Source: Candidatus Kaiserbacteria bacterium GW2011_GWA2_52_12 (GTDB lineage Bacteria > Patescibacteriota > Minisyncoccia > Phycocordibacterales > UBA2100). From it: DNA of 63,676 nt. Position 1 is the stretch's first letter; the number at the start of each line of letters is the position of its first letter. Positions 5,680 to 18,946 of this stretch are shown here, piece by piece. The notes beneath the pieces were generated by a model. It made no database searches. It was given only the letters and a program-made list of their open reading frames with translations, and was not told where the DNA came from. The position numbers were made by a program, and so were the translations under genes. The stretch spans positions 1 through 63,676 of the forward strand of contig LCQW01000001.1 of assembly GCA_001004345.1 (NCBI GenBank). Direction: 5' to 3'.

Positions 5680-6711
5680 TTAGCGTTCCGTCACCCGCGA
5701 TGGGTCGACGGCGAAGAGGGGCGAAGGATCGACGAACGGACTCATGTCGGTCGGCGGATCCCGTACATCCTGCACGGTGCCAAGCCATGCGAGTTCCTCG
5801 GAGAGCCACTTTTTCATCTGTGGAACGTTGAGCCCCACCTTAAAGCTCGTAGTATGCATGAAGTGGTCGAGGTCGCCAGGCTGCAGATTGAGCCACGCTT
5901 CGAGCCTTTGCTGCGCATCGGAGGGATTCCGTCTCATATATTCCTCGGTCCGAATGAGTGCGCGCAGCAGATTTTCCACGGCCGCCTCATTGCCTGCGAG
6001 CTTTTGCTTTGTTGAGACCACATTGAACGCGAGCGTATAGAGTTTTGGGTCAACGAAGACCTTTATTGCCCCGCGATCTCGCACGACTCGTCGTTCAACT
6101 TGATTTCTATACGCTCGTTTGGCTGTCGCTACGAAGGGATCCCAGAGTACTGCTGCGTCAATGTCGCCCCTAATGAGCAGATTGACGAGATCGGCCGGTT
6201 TCCCGTCGATGAGCGTCACGTCCTTTGGAGCGAGATTCGCTTTAGCGAGTAGTCGCGAGAGATAAATCTCACCGACCGTGTTGCGTACGCGACCGATCCG
6301 CCTAGCTCGAAGTGTCGAGGGCTCGGCGGTAATGCCGGTTTCGCTGAATGTCACCAGCTGGACTTGCTGATCGGAGAGTATCGTAGTCGCAAGGACTACG
6401 GGCTGCTGTCCCGATGCAATAAGTGTGACGACGGGCGTTACGGCGATCGTCGCTAGCTCGGTTCCCGCACGAGAGCGGAGTGCGGAGACTGCGTCGGGTC
6501 CTGCCGCCACCGGCATGATCGTGACCAGCGCATTTTCGCTTCTAATGTAGCCGAGCATTTCGGCCAGATGCGTCACGGCGCTGTACGAGATCGAGAGCTC
6601 CGCCATTTGTAGCGCCTTTTGCGCTGCCGCTTCGCGTGCGGATATACCCGTGAGCGCGAGCGACGCGGAAATTGCGATTGTTATCGCGACCAGTCGAATC
6701 GGTATTTTCAT
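5680..6711 (-). CDS. ABC transporter substrate-binding protein, NMT1/SsuA/TauA-like
   Basis: Signal peptide MKIPIRLVAITIAISASLALTG from ATG 6711. The periplasmic-binding-protein-like sequence sits directly downstream of a NitT/TauT-type permease-ATPase. Confidence 0.65.
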   Translation of the reverse strand: MKIPIRLVAITIAISASLALTGISAREAAAQKALQMAELSISYSAVTHLAEMLGYIRSENALVTIMPVAAGPDAVSALRSRAGTELATIAVTPVVTLIASGQQPVVLATTILSDQQVQLVTFSETGITAEPSTLRARRIGRVRNTVGEIYLSRLLAKANLAPKDVTLIDGKPADLVNLLIRGDIDAAVLWDPFVATAKRAYRNQVERRVVRDRGAIKVFVDPKLYTLAFNVVSTKQKLAGNEAAVENLLRALIRTEEYMRRNPSDAQQRLEAWLNLQPGDLDHFMHTTSFKVGLNVPQMKKWLSEELAWLGTVQDVRDPPTDMSPFVDPSPLFAVDPSRVTER

Positions 6712-6832
6712 TTCAATATTCCTTTCATTTGCATCTGTCCGGTAGTATAGGAAATTTTCTCGGCCTGTGCAACACATAGAGTCCTTAATGAAAAATCCCG
6801 CCCGTTGAAATGGGCGGGATATATAGTGGCAA

Positions 6833-8443
6833 TCACTTGGAACGGTTGTACTCCGCACGAAGCGCATCTGCAACCAGTTTTTTTTGCGCGGTGAATTCAC
6901 TCGTAAATTCACGGTTCCCCGGCTTCATATTCGTTCCGGAGAGAAATACCCGCGCATCGGCGCGTGTGCCGATGCGCACCAGATCGCCGATCAGGAGGGC
7001 TTCGTCGATATCATGCGTGATGAAGAGTGCGGTGATGCCGCCCCTCACATTTTCGGAGTAGAACTCTTGCATGGACCTTCTTGTGATCGCATCAAGTGCC
7101 CCGAATGGTTCGTCTAAGAGAAGAATTGTCGGCCGATAAGCGAGCGCCGAGGCTATGGCCAAACGTTGTTTTTGGCCACCGGAGAGATCGGCCGCGAGTG
7201 TGTGTGCCATGTTCAGAAGATCAAAGCGGTGCAGCATATCGCACACGCGCTCTTTGTCGCTCATGCTCGGGTGCGGTACTCCAAGCATGGCGTTGTCCCA
7301 TACCGTCATATGCTCGAACACCAACACTCCTTGAAAGACGACGCCTATTTTTGCGCATGGCCTTGTGAGGATCTCATGACCGATCTTCACTTCACCTTGG
7401 ATGGTGAAATTGGCGGACATGAAGTGGCCAATGGAGCGCATGAGCGTCGTTTTGCCGCATCCACTTTGACCGACTATGGAAAGCGTAGTGCCAGCGGGTA
7501 TGGTAAACGTTACGTTCTCGATGACCGGCACATTGCAATAACTCGCAAAGAGCCGACATATCGAGAGCGTCTCCGTCGAGTCCGCGTACACATGTGCGTT
7601 TCCGGAATCGAGTAACCCGACGAGGCGCCGCACTTTTTTCTCAAGCAAGTTCTCGCGGAGCCGTGCGATCTCGTTCCACAGGACCCTGAAGAATTGATCG
7701 AGCAGCAGTCCGATGAGCGCCATGATAACGACCGATGCCATCATGGTCGCGAGATCACCGACGTCGTACGAGCGGAAGATACGATTGCCTATGCCTTCGC
7801 TCCACCACCGGCCTGTCGAGCGCTCGTATACGCCGCTCATTTCTACGACCGCGACAGCTATGAGCGCGAGCGAGAGTGATGCACGGATAGCCGTCATGAT
7901 CTCCTTATGGATCGTAGGGATAATGACGCTGAATAGTTTCTTAAACCGGGAAATATTCAGCACCTGCAATCGCCAATCAATACGGTCAGAGATATTTTTT
8001 GCCGCATCATGCACGATGATCCACGATACAGTGCATGCGACCCAGCCGATGAGAAAAAATTTTCCCGACTCTTCGATGCCGAACACGAAGAGTGTGAGCG
8101 GCAAGAGAGCAATGAATGGAATGCCGCGGCAAAAGACGAAGAGACCCTCGAAGGTAAAACGAGCGAAATGCACGCGGCCCGTGAAGAGCCCACATGCGAT
8201 ACCGGCCGTCGTGCCGAGCGAGAATCCGATCGCCCAGCGTGAGAGTGAGACGAATATATCTTGGCCGAGCGTTCCGCTTTTCGCTTGGCGGACTACCGCC
8301 GAGCAGATCTCGGCAACGGTAGGGAAGCCGAGCGTAAGCGCGAGTGTTTGAAGCGCGACCCCCAAGAGAATGATGGTGAGCGCAGCCTTCACTGCGCTCA
8401 CCAGGAAACGTCTGCCGAGCGGCAGAAGTGTGGCTGTGCGCAT
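6833..8443 (-). CDS. Fused ABC importer permease (N-terminal) and ATP-binding domain (C-terminal), NitT/TauT-like
   Basis: About 270 aa of multi-TM permease are followed by Walker A GQSGCGKTT, signature LSGGQKQRLAIA and Walker B ILLLDEPFGALD in one ORF. Confidence 0.8.
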   Translation of the reverse strand: MRTATLLPLGRRFLVSAVKAALTIILLGVALQTLALTLGFPTVAEICSAVVRQAKSGTLGQDIFVSLSRWAIGFSLGTTAGIACGLFTGRVHFARFTFEGLFVFCRGIPFIALLPLTLFVFGIEESGKFFLIGWVACTVSWIIVHDAAKNISDRIDWRLQVLNISRFKKLFSVIIPTIHKEIMTAIRASLSLALIAVAVVEMSGVYERSTGRWWSEGIGNRIFRSYDVGDLATMMASVVIMALIGLLLDQFFRVLWNEIARLRENLLEKKVRRLVGLLDSGNAHVYADSTETLSICRLFASYCNVPVIENVTFTIPAGTTLSIVGQSGCGKTTLMRSIGHFMSANFTIQGEVKIGHEILTRPCAKIGVVFQGVLVFEHMTVWDNAMLGVPHPSMSDKERVCDMLHRFDLLNMAHTLAADLSGGQKQRLAIASALAYRPTILLLDEPFGALDAITRRSMQEFYSENVRGGITALFITHDIDEALLIGDLVRIGTRADARVFLSGTNMKPGNREFTSEFTAQKKLVADALRAEYNRSK

Positions 8444-8521
8444 TATATTGTTCCCTTTTGTGTCTCATTGAGACCTAGTGCAACACTATCAGAATGAGAA
8501 GCATGTCTCAATCGTCAGTGG

Positions 8522-9631
8522 TCAAATAAAATCGTTGACGGGATCGTGGTATGCCGCCAAACTGTGGTCGCGCTTAAAGCCCTCGGCACCCATGTCTTCT
8601 GTGATCTGTGTATAGGGGCGCTGATACAAAAGCAAAAAATAACGAGAAGCGTGTTTGATTTTATTGTCACGATACTCGGCATCTTTTGTGTATTCATAGA
8701 TGAAATCTTTGACGATCCATTTGTAACTCTTCCAGGTACCTTTGATACGTTTGTCGAGATTGTTCATGCTCCAGAGCTGGAATTCCTCGGTTGCGAAGAA
8801 CGGTGCGTAATGTGTTCCAAAGTATTCGGGAGTGATCTTTTTGATATTTCGCGGACCGGCGTAGGAGAGAATGAACATATGGACGAGCTGCCATTTGAGA
8901 CAGAAATTGATCCACCACAGACGGTCGTGGTTCGTGATGAGCGGTATCGGCGCAACGGCGGCCAGCTTTTCAAACATGTCGATATAAAAGTTGGTTATAG
9001 CGCCATCTCCGGTGAGCGCATTCCATGTCGAGAAAAATGTGTCGCGGTTGTATGTTGCCTGAATGACCGATTCTCCATACATGTTGATAAATTTACCGCA
9101 CATATCGGATCCAAAGAGCTGATCATTGGATTCGCCATTCACGATGAGATGGTTTCCGCCAAAAAGGAAATACGGTGCCATGATGCCGGGTTCGACTCGA
9201 ATCTTGCCGTGGATATGATCGCGGTAAAAATCGGGATATTCCGTTATCGATTCTTCCGACAGTATGACGACGATATTTTTCTTTTGCTCCGGCGTGGCGT
9301 TTTTGAAAAGAGATACCAGCACACAGGTTGAATCGATGCCGCCGGACCAAAAGACGTATATCGTAACCCCCATTTTTTCTGCGCGTGTGAGGAGCTCTTT
9401 AGCGCGCTCATCGCAGATCTCCCCATAGGTTTTTTTTATCGGACGGAACGCAGGCATGGGGAACAGTGATTTCACTCGGACGGGCGTCCGTATCGTTTCT
9501 GTACGGTCGACGAACAGTACACCAGTGCCGTACATCTTAAAAAAATACGAAAATGTACGTATGCCGGCTAGTGCGGCGTTTATTTTATGCGGAACGATAT
9601 TGCAATCATAATAAACAAGATGATCGCTCAT
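8522..9631 (-). CDS. PP-loop (adenine nucleotide alpha-hydrolase superfamily) ATPase, AsnB/QueC-like fold, specific function unknown
   Basis: SGGIDST PP-loop motif in the context VFWSGGIDSTCVLVSL. There is a 4-nt start/stop overlap with the upstream ORF. Confidence 0.6.
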   Translation of the reverse strand: MSDHLVYYDCNIVPHKINAALAGIRTFSYFFKMYGTGVLFVDRTETIRTPVRVKSLFPMPAFRPIKKTYGEICDERAKELLTRAEKMGVTIYVFWSGGIDSTCVLVSLFKNATPEQKKNIVVILSEESITEYPDFYRDHIHGKIRVEPGIMAPYFLFGGNHLIVNGESNDQLFGSDMCGKFINMYGESVIQATYNRDTFFSTWNALTGDGAITNFYIDMFEKLAAVAPIPLITNHDRLWWINFCLKWQLVHMFILSYAGPRNIKKITPEYFGTHYAPFFATEEFQLWSMNNLDKRIKGTWKSYKWIVKDFIYEYTKDAEYRDNKIKHASRYFLLLYQRPYTQITEDMGAEGFKRDHSLAAYHDPVNDFI

Positions 9632-10305
9632 ACGGTACCGAGCGGCTGATGATACATTTCACCCAAAAAATATTTCAGTATCGAAGACAGATCTTCTTCA
9701 GTTGTCGCTTTTTTCACTTTATTAAAATATGTCATACGCATCAGTTCTGTTTGGGAGAGACGCTGATCAGTAAGCGCAGCTTTGAAAATAATGTCATCGG
9801 CCGCCTGTTTGAGTGGAATGCCCGCATAATCCGCGTATTGCACCACGTACGGTATTTCCATGGTCCTCGTCTCGTCATACCCGCAATCCCGGAATAGTAT
9901 CGCCTGCAATTTTTTGGATAGATAGATAGTGTCTTGCGAGGCAATGCCATACGAAGAATCGTATCGTGCTATGATTATGTTTCTCATGATGGGAAGGATG
10001 GTCGCACCTTTATGCATAGCAAGCTTCGATTTGTCGCGAAGCATATCTACGTTCGGTGATGGATTTTTCTTCACCACTCTAGATGCCGGATCGAACACCC
10101 ATTCCGGATACTGTTCGGGGGAGGTATCTTTTAGCGGCGATTCATTGAGATAATTGGGAATATTGATATTAAAAACTGCGAATGAGTGCGGAGTGCAATC
10201 AGTTAAAAATGCTATGACCCCGGGGAATCTATCGATGGCGAGGATCGCCTTTGAGGAGAAATCGAGCAATGCATGGGTGGGCATACGAGTAAAATGTTGA
10301 TTCAT
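9628..10305 (-). CDS. Hypothetical protein, translationally coupled to the PP-loop ATPase
   Basis: 225-aa ORF with no recognisable motif. Its stop overlaps the start of the next gene by 4 nt. Confidence 0.5.
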   Translation of the reverse strand: MNQHFTRMPTHALLDFSSKAILAIDRFPGVIAFLTDCTPHSFAVFNINIPNYLNESPLKDTSPEQYPEWVFDPASRVVKKNPSPNVDMLRDKSKLAMHKGATILPIMRNIIIARYDSSYGIASQDTIYLSKKLQAILFRDCGYDETRTMEIPYVVQYADYAGIPLKQAADDIIFKAALTDQRLSQTELMRMTYFNKVKKATTEEDLSSILKYFLGEMYHQPLGTV

Positions 10306-10350
10306 TATATATTGCCATTTTGTTTTATCAATGTATGTAAGCCGCGATGT

Positions 10351-10380
10351 AAAAAAAGAGCCGACCTCCTGGATCGGCTC
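10351..10380 (-). terminator. Rho-independent terminator ending the YcaO operon
   Basis: On the minus strand, a GAGCCGAtccaggaggTCGGCTC hairpin is followed by a T7 run, 6 nt after the stop of the 80-aa ORF. Confidence 0.65.
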
Positions 10381-10386
10381 AGTGAT

Positions 10387-10629
10387 CTAATATCTTCGGC
10401 AGTTCCGCACGTCTTGCGCCCATCGCGTGCGAAGGAGCGACAGCATCCCGGGCGGACATAACCCCGAACGTGGATATATTTTTTTTAGTGAGTTTCTATC
10501 GAAACCCACACTGCCATCGTCCCGGTATCCAAACCCCGGGACTGGGGCACGTTTATCCATGATCAGCTGCGCTGATGCGCCGCTGATCATGAGTACCGAA
10601 ACTAAAACAGCTGCGATTACCGTCCTCAT
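10387..10629 (-). CDS. Small secreted protein (80 aa, signal peptide), last gene of the YcaO operon
   Basis: MRTVIAAVLVSVLMISGASAQ signal-like N-terminus. The mature part is Gly/Asp/Arg-rich with 2 Cys. Confidence 0.5.
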   Translation of the reverse strand: MRTVIAAVLVSVLMISGASAQLIMDKRAPVPGFGYRDDGSVGFDRNSLKKIYPRSGLCPPGMLSLLRTRWAQDVRNCRRY

Positions 10630-10661
10630 TTCAGCCTCCTTTTGCTAACTGAAATTATAGT

Positions 10662-11960
10662 TCATTTTTTTTGAAAGTCAAGTGATTCGTCGGCAACGAT
10701 TTTTGATTTCCCGCGCGGAGTTTGCGTAATGTGTGCAACGATTTCGACGTCAATGACAATGTGCTGCCCGGTGATTGTACGCACCGATTCTCGAATGCGA
10801 TCGCGGTCCGATTCTTTGAAATACGGGCCCGGAATGATCCGCACTGCGAGCCGGTCTTCCGCGTGTTTTACCACTTGATATTGCAGCACGATATCCATAA
10901 AGCCGTCGAGCGCCCCGTCAAACTCAAGATGATGGATTTTTCTGCCGTCAAACGATAAAAATGCCGAGTATCTCCCCTCTACCCATATGCGCGGCGTCTC
11001 GAGGCCGCAGGCGCACTTCTCCCGTGTCAGCACACCTTGATCCCCGGTTTCATAGCGAATGAAGGGCATATTGTAGTTCATAAGATCGGTAACGATGATT
11101 CTGCCGCGCCGTTTTTCTTTTTGCGGGAATCCGCGCTCATCCACGACCTCGACTATGACGGACTCACTGTTCACGTGCATGCCGTCATGGTATTTACATT
11201 CAATCGCGGCGCTTCCGCAGAGCTCTATGAGGCCGTAATAATCGTATACTTCCGCGGAAAATGCTTCGGCGATAGTGCGGCGGGCGAGGGGGCCGAGCAT
11301 TTCTCCGAAGGGGACGACATACTTCGATACAAGCGCCGCCGCCGTTTTGTCGCTTTTTATAATACTCACCATTTCCAGAAGAATAGAGGGGAAAGTTGTG
11401 ATGATGTCCGGCTGAAAATCGGCCATTTCACGGAGCGCTTTTTTGGGATTCCGCCGAAAGTCGGATAAATTGATAAAAAGAAGGTTGTCGAACTTCGGGA
11501 ATTTGACGTCTATGCGGACAGTTTTAAAGGTCTTGAATACATTCATGTCGTGGCTGTCCCAATACAGAAAACGATATCGCGTAAAGTTCGAGAAATTGGG
11601 ATTAAATGTCGCAGTTCCGGCAAGAACAGAAAACGGTTCGCCCGAAGAGCCCGATGTATTTTTCCATACCATTCGGAGCAATCGGCTGGTATCCGTATAT
11701 TCCTCGACCGCCTTACCTCTGAAAAAATCTTTCATAATGATCGGTAATCGTTCAAAGTCTCCCATGCGGATAATTTCATCAGGACGTACACCATGTGCCG
11801 CATATAATTCGGCGTATACAGGGATAGAGCGAACGGCGTGCCTCACGATCTTTCGAGCATAGGATACCTGCCACTTCTCGATGGCGCGCGCACCGCGCAT
11901 GTGCAAAAAGAACATCCGATACCAGTTCAGCCGATTTTTGATCGTGCGAAAGAGGTGCAT
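10662..11960 (-). CDS. Adenylate-forming enzyme, PaaK / CapK / coenzyme F390 synthetase-like (copy 2)
   Basis: TSGSSGEPF (acyl-AMP P-loop-like motif), YYGLIE, YETGDQG and a C-terminal PRGKSKIV lysine motif. Confidence 0.7.
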   Translation of the reverse strand: MHLFRTIKNRLNWYRMFFLHMRGARAIEKWQVSYARKIVRHAVRSIPVYAELYAAHGVRPDEIIRMGDFERLPIIMKDFFRGKAVEEYTDTSRLLRMVWKNTSGSSGEPFSVLAGTATFNPNFSNFTRYRFLYWDSHDMNVFKTFKTVRIDVKFPKFDNLLFINLSDFRRNPKKALREMADFQPDIITTFPSILLEMVSIIKSDKTAAALVSKYVVPFGEMLGPLARRTIAEAFSAEVYDYYGLIELCGSAAIECKYHDGMHVNSESVIVEVVDERGFPQKEKRRGRIIVTDLMNYNMPFIRYETGDQGVLTREKCACGLETPRIWVEGRYSAFLSFDGRKIHHLEFDGALDGFMDIVLQYQVVKHAEDRLAVRIIPGPYFKESDRDRIRESVRTITGQHIVIDVEIVAHITQTPRGKSKIVADESLDFQKK

Positions 11961-11985
11961 GCTGTTATTTCATGATTATAGACAC

Positions 11986-13320
11986 TTAAAATGTACGAAC
12001 AAAGTATACGGCTTTACCGCTCGCAGCCGGCGGTATGTCGTCCACAATTTCCCACGTGATACGCACGGTGGGAAGCATTTTTTCCATGAGAGCTCTTTCC
12101 ATGGCCGCCTTTTGTTCATCGTACAGCTTGCCGGGGATGACTTTCACCGTGAACGCAAGAGGGGCTGTATGAACGATTTGATACTGGCGGATTGACTGGA
12201 AGAAGCGGTCGAAAACAGAAGCGAGTTCCAGAAGCGGAACTTTTCTTCCCCTCGTAAGTTCGATCATATGCGCTTCGCGTCCTTTCAGGCGCATCGTGCG
12301 CAGTGTGCGACCACATGTACAGGGTGTAGTGTCGATAGTGCCAAGATCTCCTGTAAAATATCGGATGAAGGGCATCACACGTTGTTCAAATGCGGTAACA
12401 ACGACGCGGCCTTCGTCTCCTGCGGGAGTGGAGTGTCCCTGTATGTCGATAATTTCAACGAGATATGATTCTTCGTTGATGTGGAGCTTGTGATGTTCGC
12501 ATTCAAATGCCAGCCAGCCTAATTCCTGCGCAGGATAGCATGTGTATATATTTGCACCGAAGGCCTCTGCCATCACGCCGCGCGCCTCGGGGAGCAGTTC
12601 TTCTCCTGTAGCAATTACGCCGCGAATGGGGAGGAATATATTTTTTTCGCGCATTACACGCGCAAGTTCCAAGAGCGGGGATACGAATCCATACAAAATA
12701 AAGCCTTTTTTGTGCGACGAAGCCAATGCGACAAAATCTTTAAATCGATGTCGTATGAAATTGTAACCGCCGATGAAAAAGAACGCATAGCTCGTGAACG
12801 CAAATCCTTGCCGTTCCCGAGCGCGCATGGAAATGACGGGGAAACGCCTGCCGCCGCCTGCAGTGCGCAGCATCCGCTCACAGAGAGCGTACATACGGAG
12901 CACGTAGCCGCGATCCTGATAAAAACGGAACGGCATTCCCGTCGAGCCAGACGTGCGATCCCAAAAACTTCCATTGATATACCGTTCATTCGTAATGTAC
13001 CCGACATCTCTATCGAGGAGGTTCTTTTTTGATGTGATAGGAAGTTTTGAAAGATCATCAGCGGCGAATACATAAGGATCTACACCTGATCGAGAGAAAA
13101 CGTCTCGCCAGAAAGGAACCATATTCGAGTCTCGTATCAAGGCGGCAATACGCTTTCTTGTTATCGTTTCGATACGTGCACGCGGCCAGTACTGGCTTTT
13201 TAGGAGTACGTGCATATCGAAAAAGAACGGGATGCGCCTGAAAAGGCGATACGAAAAATGTATCGTCCACAGAGAATCATTCCGCAATCCTTTTTTGAGC
13301 AAGACATGTTCCGCAAACAT
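11986..13320 (-). CDS. Adenylate-forming enzyme, PaaK / CapK / coenzyme F390 synthetase-like (copy 1)
   Basis: TSGSTGMPF, YFTGDLG and a C-terminal ASGKAVYF motif. It is a paralogue of the adjacent gene. Confidence 0.7.
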   Translation of the reverse strand: MFAEHVLLKKGLRNDSLWTIHFSYRLFRRIPFFFDMHVLLKSQYWPRARIETITRKRIAALIRDSNMVPFWRDVFSRSGVDPYVFAADDLSKLPITSKKNLLDRDVGYITNERYINGSFWDRTSGSTGMPFRFYQDRGYVLRMYALCERMLRTAGGGRRFPVISMRARERQGFAFTSYAFFFIGGYNFIRHRFKDFVALASSHKKGFILYGFVSPLLELARVMREKNIFLPIRGVIATGEELLPEARGVMAEAFGANIYTCYPAQELGWLAFECEHHKLHINEESYLVEIIDIQGHSTPAGDEGRVVVTAFEQRVMPFIRYFTGDLGTIDTTPCTCGRTLRTMRLKGREAHMIELTRGRKVPLLELASVFDRFFQSIRQYQIVHTAPLAFTVKVIPGKLYDEQKAAMERALMEKMLPTVRITWEIVDDIPPAASGKAVYFVRTF

Positions 13321-13385
13321 ACCGAGTATGGTTCAATACTACCGCAATTCTGAAAAAATAACGTACAGAAGTGTCTAAAATATCG

Positions 13386-14075
13386 TCAAGTACTCCCGAT
13401 TGCTATCGCATACACAGGTTGCTCGATTGAATTGTCGAGGTCCAATATGTCGATCACAGCCTTGTCGTCAAATCTCGCCAGAGGACATGTGCCGAGATTC
13501 AGCGCCGTTGCGACGAGTAGTATATTTTGTGCCATGTGTCCGGCTTCGAGCATGCCCAGATAGTATCCAAAATCGCCGTACTTTTCACAATTACGATCCC
13601 ATACCGCGGTGAACATCAGGGTGAGAGGTGCGGCGTTAGCCCATGTATTTGCTGAATTATTTGAAAAAATATTCAATGGGTCTGGAATATTCCACAATCG
13701 TTCAAGTGCGTGCCCGACAACTCTGTAATGAAATGCGCCGCGCGTGAGCGATTCAACATTTTGTGTAAAGAGGTACGTTTCTATCGGGAACACCGCACCA
13801 CCCGAAGGATAGTGACGTGAGCGGCCTTCGCGAACGCCGAGCGCATGCCCAAGTAGCGTCCCGATATCACCTGCGGATAGAGGCACAGAAGAATCGAGTG
13901 ACCGACTAGAAGCCCGCTTCTTCAGCACCTCATCGAGGCCGACTCGGAGCGGGGAATACCCAAGCGATATCTGCTCCATCCGCGGGTAGCTTTTACTTTC
14001 TTTCACCACGTCGACACCCGTGCCGTTTTTGCACGTTCGCAAATGCTCGTGAATGGCGTACGGAAGTTTTTTCAT
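13386..14075 (-). CDS. SagB-type (nitroreductase-fold, FMN) dehydrogenase
   Basis: KRASSRS..., HYPSGGAVFPIETYLF, GAFHY and AGHMAQNILLVATALNLGTCPL are typical SagB/nitroreductase blocks. An ATGA overlap joins it to the YcaO stop. Confidence 0.8.
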   Translation of the reverse strand: MKKLPYAIHEHLRTCKNGTGVDVVKESKSYPRMEQISLGYSPLRVGLDEVLKKRASSRSLDSSVPLSAGDIGTLLGHALGVREGRSRHYPSGGAVFPIETYLFTQNVESLTRGAFHYRVVGHALERLWNIPDPLNIFSNNSANTWANAAPLTLMFTAVWDRNCEKYGDFGYYLGMLEAGHMAQNILLVATALNLGTCPLARFDDKAVIDILDLDNSIEQPVYAIAIGST

Positions 14076-15490
14076 GCGAACGGGTGCGGCTCATCGAGGT
14101 ACGGTGAGGAACGAGGCGTATATCCGAACATGCGAGCGACGCGCTCCCTTCGGGGCCCGCCGCCGTATTGATATCTCTCATTTTGATGGATTGGCAGGAG
14201 CTCTGGCATTACGACCATCTCTATATGCCACGGCGAAACATTCTCGGGAGATTCTGTATAGGAGATGGCGGCACATTCGTACTTATTTTTCCCGCACCAC
14301 TCCGTGATGAGCGACAAGTGCGCCTCCGGCGAAACGGCGATGTCTGTTCCGGAATGTTCCACGAGCGGTCCGCTCGTCAAAAAAGCGAGTTTCTTGTATC
14401 TGTCGCCGATAGCCCAGTACTGCGAGCGCTCCGTATGTACGACATCGCATGCTTTTTTTTCCTCGCCGAACGACTTCGTCTCTCTCTGCCGCCGAATGTT
14501 ACGCCGCATGCGGAGCGCTTCGAGCGCGGCATGTTCAACGGCATGTGAAAGATTGCGGTGCGCACAGAGCCCCATCGACCACGGAGGCATTTTCGCATGC
14601 TCGTCGTGGACAACGACACATACCGTATATGCCGGTGCGTCCGACGGCAAGAGCATCGCGTCGACGGAGAGCCGATAGCGGGCGCACTTTGCAAGGAGCG
14701 CTCTCACGTCGGAGGATTTTTTGTTGAATTTCGCGAGGTCGATGCGTGGGGGCGAAATTTGATTGAGCCACGTGATCATAAAGGCATCCCGCTCGATGAT
14801 CTCGAGCGCTCCGCCAAGGCGGGCAAATGCTTGCGACGGGCCCGCCGCCATGCCGGTCGTGATGGGTTCAAGAATGACCGGCTCGTGGCCCTTTCTGAAA
14901 TTCTCGATACCGTATTTGCCGCTCGCTACCTGTGCGGGAACCCATACCGGTTTGCCGCTCACAAGCGATTGCCCGCAAACCCATCGATATTCCGCATCGG
15001 GGTGCAATGTAAGGCGTTGAATATTCGCGCGCTGCTCCCTGGTAAATCCGGCGAATTGTTCCGGCAATAGGACGTGCCCTTGCGCAAGAATATCGCGTGC
15101 ACTCGCACGTACGACATCGGAAAATTCTACGGTGTACCACAGATGCCGCTCGACTGCTTCTGCGAGCGTAGATATGAGTGCCGAGCGATCACTCCCCCGT
15201 GACATCCCTCCCGCGACGCCGCCCTCGTGCACGAGAGTGGCTCGCCATTGGAAAAATCGCGGTTCGTCGGGAAAACCACCAACGGGCCCGTATGAGTGTA
15301 TTATTTTTGCCGCTCGCAGCCGCTCGGCCACTTCGAGCAGATCGACAAGGTCTTCACGCCCGAAAGGTATACGCGCCCGCTCAAATACGAATGTTCCTCC
15401 AAGGCGACGCTCTAAAAAACGAACAAATGCTTGGATGCCTGGTTTGGATTTCCCCCAGAGAACCTCGAAGGAGATCGCGTCTATAAGCAT
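14072..15490 (-). CDS. YcaO-domain cyclodehydratase-like protein
   Basis: STLAEAVERHLW, LEPITTGMAAGPSQAFARLGGALEIIERDAFMITWLN and a Pro-rich C-terminus resemble YcaO family proteins. No fused E1-like domain is seen. Confidence 0.8.
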   Translation of the reverse strand: MLIDAISFEVLWGKSKPGIQAFVRFLERRLGGTFVFERARIPFGREDLVDLLEVAERLRAAKIIHSYGPVGGFPDEPRFFQWRATLVHEGGVAGGMSRGSDRSALISTLAEAVERHLWYTVEFSDVVRASARDILAQGHVLLPEQFAGFTREQRANIQRLTLHPDAEYRWVCGQSLVSGKPVWVPAQVASGKYGIENFRKGHEPVILEPITTGMAAGPSQAFARLGGALEIIERDAFMITWLNQISPPRIDLAKFNKKSSDVRALLAKCARYRLSVDAMLLPSDAPAYTVCVVVHDEHAKMPPWSMGLCAHRNLSHAVEHAALEALRMRRNIRRQRETKSFGEEKKACDVVHTERSQYWAIGDRYKKLAFLTSGPLVEHSGTDIAVSPEAHLSLITEWCGKNKYECAAISYTESPENVSPWHIEMVVMPELLPIHQNERYQYGGGPRRERVARMFGYTPRSSPYLDEPHPFA

Positions 15491-15552
15491 GGTGCGGATT
15501 ATATATCAACACCTTCCATTTGACAGAGTTTCGGGTATGCATACACCCGAGA

Positions 15553-15558
15553 TATAAT
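15553..15558 (+). promoter_or_regulatory. TATAAT -10-like hexamer 6 nt upstream of the precursor ATG (possible leaderless transcript)
   Basis: TATAAT at 15553-15558, ATG at 15565, and no SD motif. The -35 region is weak (TTCGGG). Confidence 0.3.
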
Positions 15559-15564
15559 AAGATT

Positions 15565-15843
15565 ATGTTTCTAGCTCATAAAGTGCGAAACGCGGCAAGA
15601 TCGTTTACCCGCAAGACGCGTATCAAACTCCTACTTGTTTTAGGGTTTGCTTCTATTTTCTTTATTGCCGCTCCGCGCGTTCTTCACTACGATCAGACCC
15701 CTGTGGGACCCGATGCGGCGCATGCCGATGCCCCCGATTGCGGTGATTGCGGTTGCGGCGCCCCTGACTGCGCCTCTGACTGCGCCTCTGACTGCGCCCC
15801 TGACTGCGCCTCTGACTGCGGCTCCTGTGCCTGTGGTAAATAG
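15565..15843 (+). CDS. Candidate RiPP (TOMM/azole-type) precursor peptide with signal-anchor-like N-terminus and Cys-rich repetitive C-terminal core
   Basis: MFLAHKVRNAARSFTRKTRIKLLLVLGFASIFFIAAPRVL...APDCGDCGCGAPDCASDCASDCAPDCASDCGSCACGK. It has 10 Cys in the last 35 aa and lies divergent, 74 bp from YcaO. The ORF-track TTG start at 15520 is less likely. Confidence 0.65.
   Translation: MFLAHKVRNAARSFTRKTRIKLLLVLGFASIFFIAAPRVLHYDQTPVGPDAAHADAPDCGDCGCGAPDCASDCASDCAPDCASDCGSCACGK
15766..15825 (+). repeat. Five tandem copies of a 12-bp unit GACTGCGCCTCT (in-frame, encoding D-C-A-S/P)
   Basis: Copies run 15766-77, 15778-89, 15790-801 (one substitution), 15802-13 and 15814-25 (degenerate). The repeat lies inside the precursor ORF. 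Confidence 0.95.
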
Positions 15844-15915
15844 ACTTTCCACTGCGTGGGATCAATACGTTGTGCGTTGCGCAACAGCTTTGTGGTGTAT
15901 GATAATATTATCTAA

Positions 15916-16728
15916 ATGTTTAGTGGACGCGCGCAATCGAGTGGATCAATTTTGTCGCTGCGCGATCTTGTTGTTATCGTCGTCGCACTCGGACTGCTTG
16001 GATTTTTTGATGGGGCCATCGGATACACAGTCGGTGCGTATGAACGTGCTATGTTCGCCGTCGCGCCGAGTGCGCAGCGTGCTGCTTCGTATGGGGAGCG
16101 TCATATCGACGCGCGGCAGTTTCCGGCTTTGTACGATATAGACCGCGCAGAATATTATTATGAGGAACTCGAAAAAATTGATCCGACATATCCATATCTC
16201 TATCACCAACGTGCGCGCATAGAATTTTTGCGTGGACATTTCATTATTGCGCTTTCGTACATAAACAAGGAGATCGAGACTCGTGGCGCAGATGAACCAA
16301 ACACCTATTACGTCCGCGGTCTTATCGAAGGGTATATGGGGCGCTACAAACAAGCAGCCGAGGACTATGCCACATACTTGAAGTCCGATCCATACAACTG
16401 GGCGGCGCTCAATGACTATGCGTGGGTGCTTCTGAAGGCAGGTCGACCCGATAAAGCGTTGGAAGTGATCAGTCGAGGACCCGCGGGTCACCAAATACAA
16501 AATGCATGGCTCCTGAATTCAAAAGCGATAGCGTTGTATGAACTTGGCCGGATGCCCGAGGCTCTTGAGGCGGCGAAACAAGCATTGACCATGGTCGGAA
16601 ACGTCAAAGAAAAGAATTGGCTCACGGCATATCCCGGCAATGATCCGAAGATCGCTGGAGAGGGGATTGCGGCACTCAAACGATCCATAGAAACGAACAT
16701 GAAAGCTATCGAACTCGCAATAAAATAG
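15916..16728 (+). CDS. Membrane-anchored TPR-repeat protein
   Basis: N-terminal hydrophobic helix, then repeated 34-aa Ala/Tyr/Leu-patterned units (YYVRGLIEGYMGRYKQAAEDYATYLKSDP, NDYAWVLLKAGRPDKALEV, ...). Confidence 0.7.
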   Translation: MFSGRAQSSGSILSLRDLVVIVVALGLLGFFDGAIGYTVGAYERAMFAVAPSAQRAASYGERHIDARQFPALYDIDRAEYYYEELEKIDPTYPYLYHQRARIEFLRGHFIIALSYINKEIETRGADEPNTYYVRGLIEGYMGRYKQAAEDYATYLKSDPYNWAALNDYAWVLLKAGRPDKALEVISRGPAGHQIQNAWLLNSKAIALYELGRMPEALEAAKQALTMVGNVKEKNWLTAYPGNDPKIAGEGIAALKRSIETNMKAIELAIK

Positions 16729-16827
16729 CCTATCAACACATTATTCGGTAACAGGTACTGAATATATGCCCGGTCGGATATAATGGAAATCATCTCTCTT
16801 TGATCCTAATCGGAGAATCGCAATATC

Positions 16828-17985
16828 ATGAACTTGTATTATAAAATATTCGCAGGTGTCGTAGTAATAGGTTGCGTATCTGCCGCGGCTATCTACTTAT
16901 ACTTACAGCAACAGAAGCAAAAAGACGATGCGGCAGTGCAGGCAATAACAACGAACTTACTCGAAGCGAAGTACAGAGATGCAATACAAGAAACGGAAAC
17001 ATTACGTGCCAACAAACAAGAATCGGACCCACTCTACGCAATAGATCTTGAAATAGCGTCAATAGCAAGTTTCAGCGAGCTTGCTTTAAATCGCGCGGAT
17101 GCAGTGTCATCCGAGGAGTGGATCAACGTTATTCACATGGCAAAAAAACAGCTTGAATCCACGCGGGATCCATACCTTCAAGCAGGAGCCGTCGATCTAT
17201 TACTGCTTGTACTCCACCAAACGAACGATCCGGTTGTTGCCGCAGAAATCTTTGCAGGTGAACCCTTCAATAAACTTCGCGGACAGGATCGGAGTACCTC
17301 GCTCAAAAATCTGGCGACATATTCGATTGAACTATACCCGACAGCACCCCCCTACATCATGCTTGCGCGTGTACGGGCTGATGCGATAAATTATCTCCTC
17401 AAGCCCGGCTCAATCGTGCCGATTGACAATGCTAGTAGCACAGGCCTTATTTCGCGGGCTAATCAAATTGAAGAAAATGTAAAAAATGCGGAAATGGCTG
17501 CAAAAACTACGAAGGCCCGTGACGGGCGATCACCATTTTCCCTACTCACATACCCGTGGAACACAATATGGTCTGCGTATGCTCTTTCGCAGGCGGCGAG
17601 GGTTGACAAAAAGTATTGGTTGGAGACTGAAAACATGTTTAAGGACGCTATTTTATATACAGAGACGACGGTAGATAAAAATGGAAAGCCATATCCAGCT
17701 CTCCTGCAGCTTTCGGCGAAAGCACGCCTATATTACGCTCGCGGATTGTATGATATTTTTGGCGATGCGCGCGCGTCTGATATCACGAATACGCTCGATA
17801 CTTTAAGTGCGATGATTGAACGTCAGCCGGAGTTATACACGGCACAACAGCGACTTTTTGATCTCATACTCAAGAATCGCCATAGATCTGAAGTAACTCG
17901 CCATTGGTATGAAGAATTCGCCGGTCTTGCGAAATACTCGTCTTCATTTGCGTCGTATCTTAAGAGTAGAGGCTGGGATCTGTGA
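16828..17985 (+). CDS. Membrane-anchored hypothetical protein (385 aa)
   Basis: N-terminal TM helix (IFAGVVVIGCVSAAAIYLYL) and a helical-repeat-like remainder. No family recognised. Confidence 0.55.
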   Translation: MNLYYKIFAGVVVIGCVSAAAIYLYLQQQKQKDDAAVQAITTNLLEAKYRDAIQETETLRANKQESDPLYAIDLEIASIASFSELALNRADAVSSEEWINVIHMAKKQLESTRDPYLQAGAVDLLLLVLHQTNDPVVAAEIFAGEPFNKLRGQDRSTSLKNLATYSIELYPTAPPYIMLARVRADAINYLLKPGSIVPIDNASSTGLISRANQIEENVKNAEMAAKTTKARDGRSPFSLLTYPWNTIWSAYALSQAARVDKKYWLETENMFKDAILYTETTVDKNGKPYPALLQLSAKARLYYARGLYDIFGDARASDITNTLDTLSAMIERQPELYTAQQRLFDLILKNRHRSEVTRHWYEEFAGLAKYSSSFASYLKSRGWDL

Positions 17986-17989
17986 TTGC

Positions 17990-18427
17990 ATGAAGCATAT
18001 GCGCGAATATACAAAAAGCATTCTCCGACACATACGCAAAGAATTATTTTTTGTTATATTACTTTGCATCGTCTCTCTTGCGCTCGTTGCCTACATTCCG
18101 CATTCCGGCGATCGGCCCTCCCTGTCGCCTGAAGTGAAATTTGCCGATGCATCGCCAGCGGGCCTTTCCATTGTTCCTGCGTCCTGCCCGTCTGACCCGC
18201 ATTATACCAACGAATGCTCCTGCCCCACTTCGATAGAAACACCATGGCAATCGAGCGGGCTTCTTCTATATAGTGCCGCGACACGCTACATTACACAGCA
18301 GGCGAATAGTATCTGCGTAACCAATAATTCAGGCAGCCATTATTTCATCCCCGCCAACACCACAGGCGAACTGCAATCCTTTTACAACGCCGCACCGGGT
18401 CTTGGTGTGAGTGTATATTCGCCGTAG
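17990..18427 (+). CDS. Membrane-anchored hypothetical protein
   Basis: ATG 17990 lies 5 nt after the previous stop. It has a TM helix (FFVILLCIVSLALVAYI) and a Cys-containing extracytoplasmic part. Confidence 0.5.
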   Translation: MKHMREYTKSILRHIRKELFFVILLCIVSLALVAYIPHSGDRPSLSPEVKFADASPAGLSIVPASCPSDPHYTNECSCPTSIETPWQSSGLLLYSAATRYITQQANSICVTNNSGSHYFIPANTTGELQSFYNAAPGLGVSVYSP

Positions 18428-18454
18428 ACCTTCTCAGCATATACTTCTATCATC

Positions 18455-18928
18455 ATGAATGGGATCTTTTCTCGCCACTATTTCACATCATTTCTTGCGT
18501 TCCTGTGCGCTGTTGTCATTGTTGTATTCGTGCTCGCACCGGTAGCTGCTCGCGCGCAAACCGGTTCGCAGGATATTGGCACCGCGATACGCGCGGCGCT
18601 CTTCTCTGACTCGCGGGCTGCTCAAATGTCCCCGCAGCAATTCGATGCGGTGGTTGCCGCTCTTACATCAGAAGCGGTAAAGCAGGGAATGACCGCGCAC
18701 GATATCACATGGAACATGGTTGCATCGGCGGTTGATTTCGCGGAAGCAGCATGTGATTCGTATCTGTGCACCCTCAACGACGCATTCGGATTTTCAGGCT
18801 CCAACATGATGATACCCATCGGGCTCGGATTTTCCTCCGCGCTTCTCCTGCTCATAATTGGCACAATGAGGGGGATGCACCGTACGCCAGCTGTTCCGCC
18901 GTCTGTAGCACGCGCACCGGTGCAATAA
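18455..18928 (+). CDS. Hypothetical protein with N-terminal signal/TM and C-terminal TM helix
   Basis: FLAFLCAVVIVVFVLAPVAARAQ signal-like segment and a C-terminal MMIPIGLGFSSALLLLIIG helix. Confidence 0.5.
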   Translation: MNGIFSRHYFTSFLAFLCAVVIVVFVLAPVAARAQTGSQDIGTAIRAALFSDSRAAQMSPQQFDAVVAALTSEAVKQGMTAHDITWNMVASAVDFAEAACDSYLCTLNDAFGFSGSNMMIPIGLGFSSALLLLIIGTMRGMHRTPAVPPSVARAPVQ

Positions 18929-18946
18929 TGAACCTGATAACGACCC

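What the first reader, a model, noticed from the sequence alone, without database searches (positions are those of the whole stretch)
8522..15843. Non-canonical TOMM-type RiPP cluster: YcaO + SagB dehydrogenase + two PaaK-like ligases facing a Cys-rich repeat precursor
What the sequence shows:
- A minus-strand operon starts with a YcaO-domain protein (14072-15490).
- YcaO is ATGA-coupled to a SagB-type FMN dehydrogenase (13386-14075).
- Two paralogous PaaK/CapK-like adenylate-forming enzymes follow.
- An 80-aa signal-peptide protein comes next.
- A clean terminator closes the operon (10351-10380).
- A 92-aa ORF lies 74 bp away on the other strand, and its last 35 residues contain 10 Cys.

Established knowledge: YcaO plus a SagB dehydrogenase next to a short Cys/Ser/Thr-rich ORF is the hallmark of thiazole/oxazole-modified microcin (linear azole peptide) biosynthesis.

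What is unusual:
- No E1-like/Ocin-ThiF-like partner or recognisable RRE-containing ORF is present.
- No leader peptidase or C39 exporter is in the operon.
- Two ANL-superfamily ligases are embedded as core operon members.
- The precursor looks membrane-targeted.
- The whole locus sits inside the ribosomal-protein superoperon of a CPR-like genome.

This combination is not one I recognise from described TOMM classes.
Basis: partly seen in the sequence, partly recalled or inferred. Interest (0 to 1): 0.9.

Follow-up and report, generated by a model that had tools for sequence, protein, structure and literature searches.

The report
Azole-peptide gene cluster in CPR bacterium
This is a real gene cluster for a ribosomally made, chemically modified peptide (thiazole/oxazole type) from an uncultivated ultra-small bacterium; the kind is known, but this version has no helper protein, a membrane-targeting leader on its peptide and two unusual ligases.

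Summary
The 472-aa ORF is a YcaO, and the 229-aa ORF overlapping it by ATGA is a SagB-type dehydrogenase. Two paralogous PaaK/CapK-like ligases follow. A 92-aa ORF with 10 Cys in its last 35 residues lies 74 bp upstream on the other strand.

Comparative data support the RiPP reading. The YcaO defines a metagenome-only Patescibacteria family of about 234 clusters at 50% identity. SagB is almost always adjacent. In 52 of 60 loci with room upstream there is a divergent short ORF of the same design:
- a basic N-terminus;
- a hydrophobic helix of about 18 aa;
- a conserved (V/I)AHA-D(A/V)P junction;
- an acidic core rich in Gly, Ser, Cys and Asp.

No E1-like, ThiF-like or RRE partner was found, including in the YcaO N-terminus. 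Two membrane-anchored TPR proteins are the next most conserved neighbours.

The ligase pair is a recurrent accessory rather than a core part. It occurs in about one third of full-length loci. Conversely, 5 of 7 LigA homologues examined lie within 10 kb of a YcaO.

YcaO-plus-nitroreductase clusters in CPR genomes were already reported in a 2020 survey. I therefore rate this a new variant of a known kind. Export, cleavage and the ligase chemistry are inferred, not shown.

The parts
15565..15843 (+). Precursor peptide gene (92 aa; an alternative TTG start at 15520 would give 107 aa). It has a basic N-terminus, a hydrophobic helix, an AAHA-DAP junction and an acidic core DCGDCGCGAPDCASDCASDCAPDCASDCGSCACGK with 10 Cys.
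   Evidence: Homologues of the same design occur in 52 of 60 related loci. The charge bias predicts N-in/C-out.
15758..15824 (+). 12-bp tandem repeat (5.6 copies, 92% matches) encoding the DCAS/DCAP repeats of the core.
14072..15490 (-). YcaO cyclodehydratase (472 aa), stand-alone type, with no fused E1-like domain.
   Evidence: PF02624 E=2.7e-45 and TIGR03604 at 176 bits. AF2 model pLDDT 92.5. The best fold matches are LynD, MusD, TruD, archaeal YcaO and McbD. The ExxER and ExxERD motifs and the C-terminal PHPF are invariant in the family.
13386..14075 (-). SagB-type FMN dehydrogenase (229 aa), overlapping YcaO by 4 nt (ATGA).
   Evidence: TIGR03605 at 124 bits, above the cut-off of 78. The RxYPSGG and EAGH motifs and Tyr166 of the Lys-Tyr pair are conserved in 43-44 of 44 homologues.
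11986..13320 (-). LigA: PaaK/CapK-like adenylate-forming enzyme (444 aa).
   Evidence: All ANL core motifs are kept. The A-type forms an orthologous group across loci.
10662..11960 (-). LigB: a paralogous PaaK/CapK-like adenylate-forming enzyme (432 aa), 28% identical to LigA.
10358..10380 (-). Intrinsic-terminator-like hairpin plus a T7 run, downstream of the 80-aa ORF.
10387..10629 (-). 80-aa secreted-protein-like ORF. It is probably not part of the system: it has its own promoter-like site, and its homologue in L001 lies elsewhere, near S10.
15916..16728 (+). 270-aa membrane-anchored TPR protein, directly after the precursor gene.
   Evidence: TPR Pfam hits. Present in 29 of 54 loci. 27 of 31 members have an N-terminal hydrophobic anchor.
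16828..17985 (+). 385-aa membrane-anchored TPR-repeat protein (p385). It is the third most conserved gene of the locus and in other loci lies next to the precursor gene.
   Evidence: Present in 39 of 54 loci. The family profile matches consensus TPR proteins at E=2e-35. Member-wise TPR Pfam hits. 40 of 42 members have an N-terminal anchor.
9628..10305 (-). 225-aa protein of unknown function. With the next gene it forms a second recurrent accessory pair and has its own promoter-like site.
   Evidence: No family hits. It recurs with p369 in at least 7 fetched loci and in the P0028 contig.
8522..9631 (-). 369-aa protein of the PP-loop (SGGIDS) ATP-pyrophosphatase superfamily, specific function unknown.
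   Evidence: S96-G97-G98 are invariant, and I99, D100 and S101 are conserved in at least 90% of sequences. There are weak profile matches to NAD synthase, TilS, LarE and QueC.
17909..18928 (+). Two small envelope-protein genes (172 aa and 157 aa) between p385 and L3. Their synteny is conserved; whether they take part in the system is unknown.
15498..15526 (-). Promoter-like site (CTGTCA-17-TATAAT) upstream of YcaO.
   Evidence: This is a consensus match only.

Best explanation
The locus encodes a Patescibacteria-specific variant of a linear azol(in)e-peptide (TOMM/LAP) system.

Shown:
- A TOMM-type YcaO and a SagB-type FMN dehydrogenase are translationally coupled.
- They sit divergently next to a short gene whose product has a basic N-terminus, a hydrophobic helix of about 18 residues, a conserved (V/I)AHA-D(A/V)P junction, and an acidic low-complexity core rich in Gly, Ser, Cys and Asp.
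- This arrangement is conserved across a diverse family of loci.

Inferred from the established chemistry of these enzyme families:
- In the cytoplasm the YcaO uses ATP to cyclodehydrate Cys residues of the core, and possibly Ser/Thr residues, to azolines.
- SagB then oxidises the azolines to azoles.

Inferred with lower confidence:
- The YcaO recognises the precursor without an E1-like or RRE partner, possibly through the conserved junction motif.
- The hydrophobic leader then takes the modified peptide to the membrane with its N-terminus inside and its C-terminus outside.
- The acidic polyazole part is either released by cleavage after the Ala-x-Ala site or stays anchored on the cell surface.
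- The membrane-anchored TPR proteins encoded beside the precursor handle the peptide at the surface.

Most speculative step: the two PaaK/CapK-like ligases are optional tailoring enzymes. They would adenylate a carboxylate, either a small acid or a peptide carboxyl group, and join it to the peptide or to an envelope acceptor.
For: Enzyme identity:
- HMM scores support both assignments.
- The YcaO AF2 model has pLDDT 92.5. Its best fold matches are azoline-forming heterocyclases: LynD at TMq 0.70 and E=7e-22, MusD, TruD, and also McbD.
- The Glu-x-x-Glu-Arg motifs and the C-terminal Pro-His-Pro-Phe are invariant in the family.
- SagB keeps RxYPSGG, EAGH and the Tyr of the Lys-Tyr pair.

Linkage:
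- SagB lies next to the YcaO in essentially every locus with room.
- A precursor of the same design is present in 52 of 60 loci, with 45 distinct cores: G 27%, S 18%, C 14%, D 12.5%, K+R 1%, median 6 Cys.
- One genome carries up to 4 precursor paralogues.
- The linkage persists in L003/L004, which lie outside the ribosomal-protein operon.

Membrane targeting:
- The median hydrophobic run is 18 residues.
- The N-flank has net charge +2.7 against +0.1 for the C-flank, with N greater than C in 32 of 36 precursors.
- All co-oriented neighbours (TPR270, p385, p172) carry N-terminal anchors.
- A subset of loci has membrane-anchored DsbA-like and rhodanese genes in the same operon.

Ligases:
- A-type and B-type form orthologous pairs, and all ANL motifs are intact.
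- 5 of 7 LigA homologues examined lie within 10 kb of a YcaO, and the gene order is shuffled between loci.

Family size and taxonomy: 234 representatives at E<=1e-30. Named hits are all Patescibacteria MAGs.
Against: - Nothing here is biochemical. No azole has been observed.
- The YcaO scores below the curated SagD-family cut-off, 176 against 219 bits.
- The partner that azoline-forming YcaOs need 'in most cases' (PMC7136475) was not found.
- Some cores have only 1-3 Cys. These would have to be modified at Ser/Thr or hardly at all.
- The Ala-x-Ala site lies 11-29 residues after the hydrophobic run, which is far for a classical signal-peptidase I site.
- DsbA-like and rhodanese neighbours hint that at least some Cys stay as thiols outside the cell.
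- The ligases are absent from about two thirds of full-length loci, and more distant homologues occur away from any YcaO.
- All the accessory modules share one variable island between S10 and L3. Co-location could therefore partly reflect the island rather than shared function.
Confidence: 0.78

Rival explanations
1. The short Cys-rich ORF is an ordinary membrane-anchored envelope protein, acting in metal binding or as a disulfide-rich acidic surface protein. It belongs to the operon of envelope genes upstream of L3. YcaO and SagB merely lie next to it and modify something else, or nothing that is encoded nearby.
For: - The ORF is co-oriented with, and possibly co-transcribed with, four membrane-anchored proteins and the L3 operon.
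- DsbA-like and rhodanese genes lie in the same operon in 8-9 loci.
- Several homologues have only 1-3 Cys.
- No recognised leader-binding partner was found.
Against: - The ORF is divergently adjacent to the YcaO in 52 of 60 loci. This includes loci outside the ribosomal context, where 4 paralogues flank the YcaO.
- The core composition (G/S/C with CxC and GC runs) matches known azole-peptide cores such as microcin B17.
- The precursor copy number and the repeat-driven variation of the core are typical of RiPP precursors.
Confidence: 0.1
2. The YcaO performs another YcaO chemistry on the precursor, such as thioamidation, amidine formation or ATP-dependent peptide cleavage, rather than azoline formation.
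For: - It is a stand-alone YcaO without an E1-like partner.
- It scores below the SagD-family cut-off.
- One of its top fold matches is MusD, a YcaO with ATP-dependent peptidase activity (7u58).
- A rhodanese, a possible sulfur donor, is present in some loci.
Against: - It is translationally coupled to a SagB-type azoline dehydrogenase that keeps its active-site motifs. This pairing is universal in the family.
- No TfuA gene was found.
- TIGR03604 is by far the best NCBIfam match, 176 bits against 61 for the thioamidation YcaO.
Confidence: 0.07
3. The two ligases, and likewise the p225/p369 pair, have nothing to do with the peptide. They belong to separate cassettes, for example envelope glycan or lipid modification in the manner of CapK. 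These cassettes accumulate in the same variable island between S10 and L3.
For: - The ligases are present in only 5-6 of 17 full-flank YcaO loci.
- Their position and orientation relative to YcaO vary.
- More distant homologues occur without a YcaO (one search is ambiguous).
- The family name CapK_C points to capsule-type chemistry.
- Unrelated genes, a hydantoinase pair and an ABC importer, share the island.
Against: - In the window and in L008/L164, L013 and L103 the pair follows SagB on the same strand.
- 5 of 7 homologues examined are within 10 kb of a YcaO despite the shuffled gene order. Linkage that survives rearrangement argues for shared function.
Confidence: 0.35
4. YcaO and SagB modify a ribosomal protein. 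This is suggested by the position inside the S10-L3 operon and by the link between E. coli YcaO and S12 methylthiolation.
For: - The locus lies between S10 and L3 in many genomes.
- Automatic annotations read 'ribosomal protein S12 methylthiotransferase accessory factor'.
Against: - L003/L004 carry the YcaO, SagB, p385 and four precursors away from ribosomal-protein genes.
- The annotation is a generic transfer from E. coli YcaO, which is a distant fold match (TMq about 0.5).
- The constant partner of the YcaO is the short ORF, not the ribosomal genes.
Confidence: 0.02

Closest known systems
Microcin B17 system (McbA precursor, McbBCD synthetase)
   Same: - The core is rich in Gly, Ser and Cys.
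- A YcaO cyclodehydratase works with an FMN dehydrogenase.
- McbD is a significant fold match to the window YcaO (6gos/6gri, E about 1e-12).
   Different: - McbBCD needs the E1-like scaffold McbB for leader binding. No such gene exists here.
- The McbA leader is not hydrophobic, and export uses a dedicated ABC pump.
- Here the leader carries a helix of about 18 hydrophobic residues and the core is strongly acidic.

The features of the Mcb system are from my own knowledge and from the general description in PMC7136475.
Cyanobactin heterocyclases LynD / TruD / PatD
   Same: They are the closest solved structures to the YcaO (4v1v, TMq 0.70, E=7e-22). The sequence profile aligns from residue 97 onward with their YcaO domains.
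   Different: Those enzymes are about 750-780 aa, with a fused N-terminal RRE and an E1-like domain. The window protein is 472 aa. Its first 100 residues have no RRE-like or any other significant fold match.
Stand-alone YcaOs of bottromycin biosynthesis
   Same: They are YcaO enzymes that act on a ribosomal peptide without a partner protein (PMC7136475). One of them forms a thiazoline.
   Different: The bottromycin cluster has no SagB-type dehydrogenase. It uses a follower peptide and a short core with a single Cys. There is no sequence-level closeness to those enzymes in my searches.
LAP clusters of CPR bacteria reported by Sharrar et al. 2020 (mBio, PMC7298704)
   Same: They are YcaO-plus-nitroreductase clusters with an adjacent short precursor in CPR genomes: 110 clusters in 93 genomes, 51 of them in Parcubacteria, and 89 with the nitroreductase next to YcaO. 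The present family is very probably among them.
   Different: - That report is an antiSMASH-level survey.
- The cluster it illustrates is from Microgenomates and includes a peptidase.
- In the passages read (a term search of the paper), it does not mention the hydrophobic leader, the AHA-D junction, the TPR partners, the lack of a C/F partner, the ligase pair or the S10-L3 location.
Bufferins (MNIO-modified, Sec-exported peptide metallophores)
   Same: They are RiPP precursors with an N-terminal export signal whose Cys residues are converted to heterocycles, and whose product acts outside the cytoplasm in metal binding (PMC11626156 and PMC12452194, abstracts).
   Different: The modifying enzyme there is an MNIO (DUF692) with a partner, not YcaO and SagB. 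No such gene exists here. Whether the present peptide binds metal is unknown.
PaaK-family ligases, including NatL2/AjiA1 and CapK
   Same: LigA and LigB match phenylacetate-CoA ligases (4r1l E=1.5e-22; 9s3l E=2e-19) and NatL2/AjiA1. They keep all ANL motifs. Their homologues carry the Pfam family CapK_C.
   Different: They fall far below every NCBIfam equivalog cut-off, for example PaaK at 57-76 bits against 646. Their substrate is unknown. I found no described RiPP pathway that combines YcaO with such ligases: a full-text search returned 0 papers.

Membership tests
Linear azol(in)e-containing peptide (LAP/TOMM) gene cluster | A YcaO-domain cyclodehydratase (D protein). | tested here: met
   PF02624 E=2.7e-45. 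The fold matches LynD, TruD and McbD.
Linear azol(in)e-containing peptide (LAP/TOMM) gene cluster | An FMN-dependent SagB-type azoline dehydrogenase (B protein). | tested here: met
   TIGR03605 at 124 bits against a cut-off of 78. The motifs are conserved in 44 homologues.
Linear azol(in)e-containing peptide (LAP/TOMM) gene cluster | An adjacent precursor gene with a leader and a Cys/Ser/Thr-rich core. | tested here: met
   ORF at 15565-15843. The same design occurs in 52 of 60 related loci.
Linear azol(in)e-containing peptide (LAP/TOMM) gene cluster | An E1-like (C) or Ocin-ThiF-like (F) partner, or an RRE, for leader recognition. This is present 'in most cases' and is not strictly obligatory (PMC7136475). 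| tested here: not met
   - No ThiF, E1-like or RRE hit in any gene between S10 and L3.
- None among the conserved gene families of 54 loci.
- p385 is a TPR protein.
- The YcaO N-terminus has no RRE-like fold match.
Linear azol(in)e-containing peptide (LAP/TOMM) gene cluster | Azol(in)e rings are actually installed on the peptide. | not testable with these tools
   This needs mass spectrometry after co-expression or in vitro reconstitution.
NCBIfam TIGR03604 (SagD-family TOMM cyclodehydratase) | A whole-protein score at or above the curated cut-off of 219.25 bits. | tested here: not met
   The score is 175.9 bits, aligned over model positions 5-377 of 377. It is the best-matching family but below threshold, so this is a divergent relative.
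Azoline-forming YcaO (C-terminal Pro-rich PxPxP motif; feature recalled from my own knowledge of Dunbar et al. 2014) | A conserved Pro-x-Pro-x-Pro at the extreme C-terminus. | tested here: inconclusive
   The family ends in an invariant P468-H469-P470-F471 followed by Ala or Cys. This gives Pro-x-Pro, and the third Pro is absent.
Classical Sec signal peptide (n-h-c regions with Ala-x-Ala 3-7 residues after the h-region) | A short c-region between the hydrophobic core and the Ala-x-Ala cleavage site. | tested here: not met
   The hydrophobic run has a median of 18 residues. The spacer to the AHA motif has a median of about 20 and a range of 11-29. The design looks like a signal anchor with a distal Ala-x-Ala site. 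The positive-inside bias is met.
ANL superfamily, PaaK/CapK branch | The core adenylation motifs: the P-loop TSGSTGxP, YGxxE, TGD, the GR hinge and the catalytic Lys. | tested here: met
   All are present in both LigA-type and LigB-type sequences. Solved PaaK proteins are the best hits.
Phenylacetate-CoA ligase PaaK proper (TIGR02155) | An equivalog score at or above 646 bits. | tested here: not met
   The scores are 56.9 and 76.3 bits.
Bufferin-type MNIO RiPP system | An MNIO (DUF692) enzyme and its partner next to a signal-peptide precursor. | tested here: not met
   No such domain occurs in any gene of the island.

The most novel reading that the evidence does not exclude
This would be the first YcaO-type RiPP whose leader is a membrane signal anchor. 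A partner-less YcaO/SagB pair would modify the peptide in the cytoplasm. The peptide would then be inserted N-in/C-out and displayed, or released at the conserved AHA-D site, as a highly acidic polyazole on the surface of an episymbiotic CPR cell. There the membrane-anchored TPR proteins would hold it. It could serve in metal capture or in contact with the host. The CapK-like ligase pair would perform a tailoring step not yet seen in RiPPs, for example joining peptide carboxylates to an envelope acceptor or acylating the peptide.
Probability: 0.22. Interest if true: 0.8.

Novelty: new variant of a known kind. Interest (0 to 1): 0.6.

Why it matters
CPR/Patescibacteria have tiny genomes and almost no recognised secondary metabolism. 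A conserved and diversified peptide-modification system is therefore likely to matter for their life as episymbionts. This one comprises about 234 clusters at 50% identity and sits beside core ribosomal genes.

For RiPP enzymology it offers three things:
- a natural YcaO/SagB pair that seems to work without the usual leader-binding partner;
- a leader that looks like a membrane anchor;
- a recurrent pair of adenylate-forming enzymes with no described role in azole-peptide pathways.

Each of these can be tested by heterologous expression, because the genes are few and small.

Tried and rejected
1. **RRE in the YcaO N-terminus.** I modelled the first 100 residues alone (pLDDT 88). The best PDB fold match had E=0.04 and TM below 0.3, and no PqqD/RRE or winged-helix hit appeared. 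The idea is not supported.

2. **p385 as the missing, divergent E1-like C protein.** Its size of about 380 aa fits. I rejected this because the family profile matches TPR repeats (E=2e-35), members hit TPR Pfam families, and it has an N-terminal membrane anchor.

3. **Word-index homology search for p385.** It found only 3 proteins. The family evolves too fast, so I built it from the fetched loci instead.

4. **p225.** Pfam and NCBIfam scans of the protein and a PDB-sequence search with its family profile gave no informative hit. PHROGs gave one hit to a family of unknown function. Its function is left open.

5. **p369 and its shorter paralogue c20.** I could place them only in the PP-loop superfamily. 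A lasso-cyclase-like (asparagine-synthetase-type) role was considered. The matches are too weak (E about 1e-3 to 0.06) to claim it.

6. **C-terminal tail of the YcaO against PDB sequences.** I tried this to check the PxPxP motif. Only spurious hits came back.

7. **Ribosomal-protein substrate.** Rejected because the system also occurs away from ribosomal genes.

8. **Literature searches.** Combinations of YcaO with Patescibacteria or Parcubacteria, with phenylacetate-CoA ligase, and with TPR/transmembrane precursors were searched. They found only survey-level mentions.

Full report
**1. What is in the sequence**

On the minus strand there is a 472-aa ORF at 14072-15490. It overlaps by 4 nt (ATGA) with a 229-aa ORF at 13386-14075. 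Two ORFs of 444 aa (11986-13320) and 432 aa (10662-11960) follow, then an 80-aa ORF (10387-10629).

A hairpin with a 9-bp stem and a T7 run lies at 10358-10380. Promoter-like sites precede the 80-aa ORF, the next gene (225 aa, 9628-10305) and the YcaO gene. The tight operon is therefore YcaO-SagB-LigA-LigB.

A 92-aa ORF starts 74 bp from the YcaO start on the plus strand (15565-15843). It has 10 Cys in its last 35 residues. That part is encoded by a 12-bp tandem repeat of 5.6 copies.

The whole region is an 18.3-kb stretch between ribosomal protein genes S10 (186-650) and L3 (19004-19681), followed by L4, L23 and L2.

**2. Identity of the enzymes**

- *YcaO.* The 472-aa protein matches Pfam YcaO (E=2.7e-45). 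Its best NCBIfam match is the SagD-family TOMM cyclodehydratase (175.9 bits, end-to-end on the model, but below the curated 219-bit cut-off). An AlphaFold2 model built on 40 homologues has mean pLDDT 92.5. Its best solved neighbours are the cyanobactin heterocyclase LynD (TMq 0.70, E=7e-22), MusD, TruD, archaeal YcaOs and McbD. The two Glu-x-x-Glu-Arg motifs and a C-terminal Pro-His-Pro-Phe are invariant in the family.
- *SagB.* The 229-aa protein passes the curated SagB threshold (124 against 78 bits). Across 44 homologues it keeps RxYPSGG, EAGH and the Tyr of a Lys-Tyr pair.
- *Ligases.* LigA and LigB are 28% identical paralogues. They are nearest to PaaK-type ligases and to NatL2/AjiA1 among solved structures. 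Both keep every core ANL motif.

**3. The family and its neighbourhood**

The YcaO has about 55 homologues of 38-69% identity in the word-indexed search. All come from metagenomes, and the only named one is from Candidatus Paceibacterota. An exhaustive phmmer search finds 234 representatives of 50%-identity clusters at E<=1e-30. Genome hits are MAGs labelled Paceibacteria, Parcubacteria, Kaiserbacteria, Nomurabacteria, Adlerbacteria and the like.

I fetched 169 loci. I then clustered the ORFs of 54 loci whose YcaO is at least 34% identical to the window's. The counts are:

| Gene family | Loci (of 54) |
|---|---|
| SagB (clustered as an ORF) | 42 |
| Membrane-anchored ~380-aa protein (window 16828-17985, p385) | 39 |
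| 270-aa TPR protein (window 15916-16728) | 29 |
| Phosphoribosyltransferase + PQQ-like beta-propeller fusion (absent from the window) | 25 |
| Ligase family | 10 |
| 225-aa protein / PP-loop protein (window 8522-10305) | 7 / 6 |
| Membrane-anchored DsbA-like and rhodanese genes | 8-9 |

By tblastn, SagB is adjacent wherever the contig extends far enough; the ORF count is lower mainly because of truncated contigs and ORF-calling.

The p385 family profile matches consensus TPR proteins (E=2e-35), and many members hit TPR Pfam families. It is therefore not an E1-like protein.

No ThiF, E1-like or RRE protein appears anywhere in the window island or among the conserved families. By contrast, more distant YcaOs in the database do carry fused ThiF domains.

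**4. The precursor**

A motif search, a manual check of the loci it missed and a final census agree. Of 60 loci with at least 450 nt upstream of the YcaO, 52 have a divergent short ORF within 1.3 kb built as follows:
- a basic N-terminus;
- a hydrophobic run (median 18 residues);
- a spacer (median about 20, range 11-29);
- a conserved (V/I)-A-H-A / D-(A/V)-P junction;
- a core of 17-103 residues.

The 45 distinct cores contain G 27%, S 18%, C 14%, D 12.5% and almost no Lys or Arg. Cys counts range from 1 to 17, with a median of 6.

One genome has four paralogues around the YcaO. That locus is not in a ribosomal-protein operon.

The charge distribution predicts the N-terminus inside and the acidic core outside: N-flank +2.7 against C-flank +0.1, with N greater than C in 32 of 36 precursors. 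The co-oriented neighbours TPR270, p385 and p172 nearly all carry N-terminal hydrophobic anchors.

**5. How substrate recognition might work**

Azoline-forming YcaOs 'in most cases' need an E1-like or ThiF-like partner (PMC7136475). I tested two candidate replacements.
- The first 100 residues of the YcaO lie outside the Pfam and TIGR models. They fold confidently (pLDDT 88) but have no significant structural neighbour and none of RRE type.
- p385 is a TPR protein with a membrane anchor.

The evidence therefore points to a stand-alone YcaO, as in bottromycin biosynthesis. This one, however, is coupled to a SagB dehydrogenase. The invariant junction motif next to the core is the most plausible recognition element. 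That is inference only.

**6. The ligases**

A-type and B-type ligases form orthologous pairs, usually adjacent and in the order A then B. They occur in 5-6 of 17 YcaO-seeded loci with full 10-kb flanks.

Starting from LigA instead, the family is large, with more than 120 proteins of at least 36% identity. Of 7 homologues on long contigs:
- 5 lie within 10 kb of a YcaO. Four of these have an adjacent nitroreductase, and one duplicates L008.
- Orientation and intervening genes vary between them.
- One sits at a contig end and is uninformative.
- One, the most distant at 37% identity, has no YcaO nearby.

Linkage that survives rearrangement suggests a shared function. All these cassettes share the same variable S10-L3 island, however, so I give the 'unrelated cassette' rival 0.35. 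The chemistry is unknown. PaaK-family enzymes adenylate a carboxylate and pass it to a thiol, amine or hydroxyl.

**7. Comparison with what is known**

The system works like a linear azole peptide (LAP/TOMM) pathway. It meets three defining features (YcaO, SagB, adjacent precursor). It fails the usual but not obligatory fourth, a C or F partner.

It resembles microcin B17 in core composition, LynD in YcaO fold, bottromycin YcaOs in being stand-alone, and bufferins in having an export-type leader on a Cys-modified peptide.

CPR LAP clusters were reported at survey level in 2020: 110 clusters, 51 in Parcubacteria, 89 with a nitroreductase next to YcaO (PMC7298704). In the held literature I found no description of the following:
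- the hydrophobic leader;
- the junction motif;
- the TPR partners;
- the missing C/F protein;
- the ligase pair;
- the S10-L3 position.

**8. Verdict**

It is a new variant of a known kind.

My confidence that YcaO and SagB modify this precursor to an azole peptide is about 0.78. Export, cleavage, the role of the TPR proteins and the role of the ligases are inferred and much less certain.

Noticed in passing
window 54686-54760 (+): A tRNA-Ile gene with anticodon TAT. Most bacteria read AUA with a lysidine-modified CAT tRNA, so this is unusual.
   Followed up: no
window 15553-15567 (+): A perfect TATAAT lies only 7 nt before the ATG of the precursor gene, with no room for a Shine-Dalgarno sequence. 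The precursor mRNA may be leaderless. The TTGACA at 15520-15525 is 27 nt upstream, too far for a standard -35.
   Followed up: partly
related loci, e.g. L110 3818-5467 (+), L011, L014, L089, L099: A fusion of a phosphoribosyltransferase-like domain with a PQQ/BamB-like beta-propeller (about 549 aa) follows SagB in 25 of 54 family loci. It is absent from the window. Its role in a peptide pathway is unexplained.
   Followed up: partly
related loci L011, L017, L021, L090, L093, L106, L108, L131 (between the p385 and TPR genes): Membrane-anchored DsbA-like (Thioredoxin_4) and rhodanese genes sit inside the precursor-side operon. This hints at thiol or sulfur chemistry on the exported peptide.
   Followed up: partly
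L003/L004 7268-9887; L027, L093, L097, L022: One genome has four precursor paralogues around a p385 gene. Several genomes carry two YcaO-SagB pairs in one locus.
   Followed up: partly
window 186-19681: S10 and L3, normally adjacent, are separated by 18.3 kb. Besides the peptide system, this stretch holds a hydantoinase/oxoprolinase A+B pair (1648-5809), an NMT1-type binding protein (5680-6912) and a fused permease-ATPase ABC protein (6833-8443). The same split of S10 from L3 recurs in related genomes.
   Followed up: partly
window 8522-10305 (-); L010, L018, L027, L099, L102, L105: A 225-aa protein with no detectable relatives and a 369-aa PP-loop (SGGIDS) protein form a recurrent pair. A shorter PP-loop paralogue (about 298 aa) often lies next to a LigA-type ligase in other loci. 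These may form a second ATP-dependent tailoring module.
   Followed up: partly
window 50017-50407 (-): A tmRNA gene (127.8 bits) with the tag peptide ANKVARAVLSPIQLADLQPAYALIA.
   Followed up: no
L163 12652-14004 (+); L167 65-3690 (+): In L163 the LigA/LigB pair is followed by a third, similar-sized gene (450 aa, no Pfam hit, not shown to be a ligase). In L167 three ligase-type genes lie in a row: two with CapK_C hits (316 and 455 aa) and a third with an AMP-binding hit only. The ligase module may therefore be expandable.
   Followed up: no
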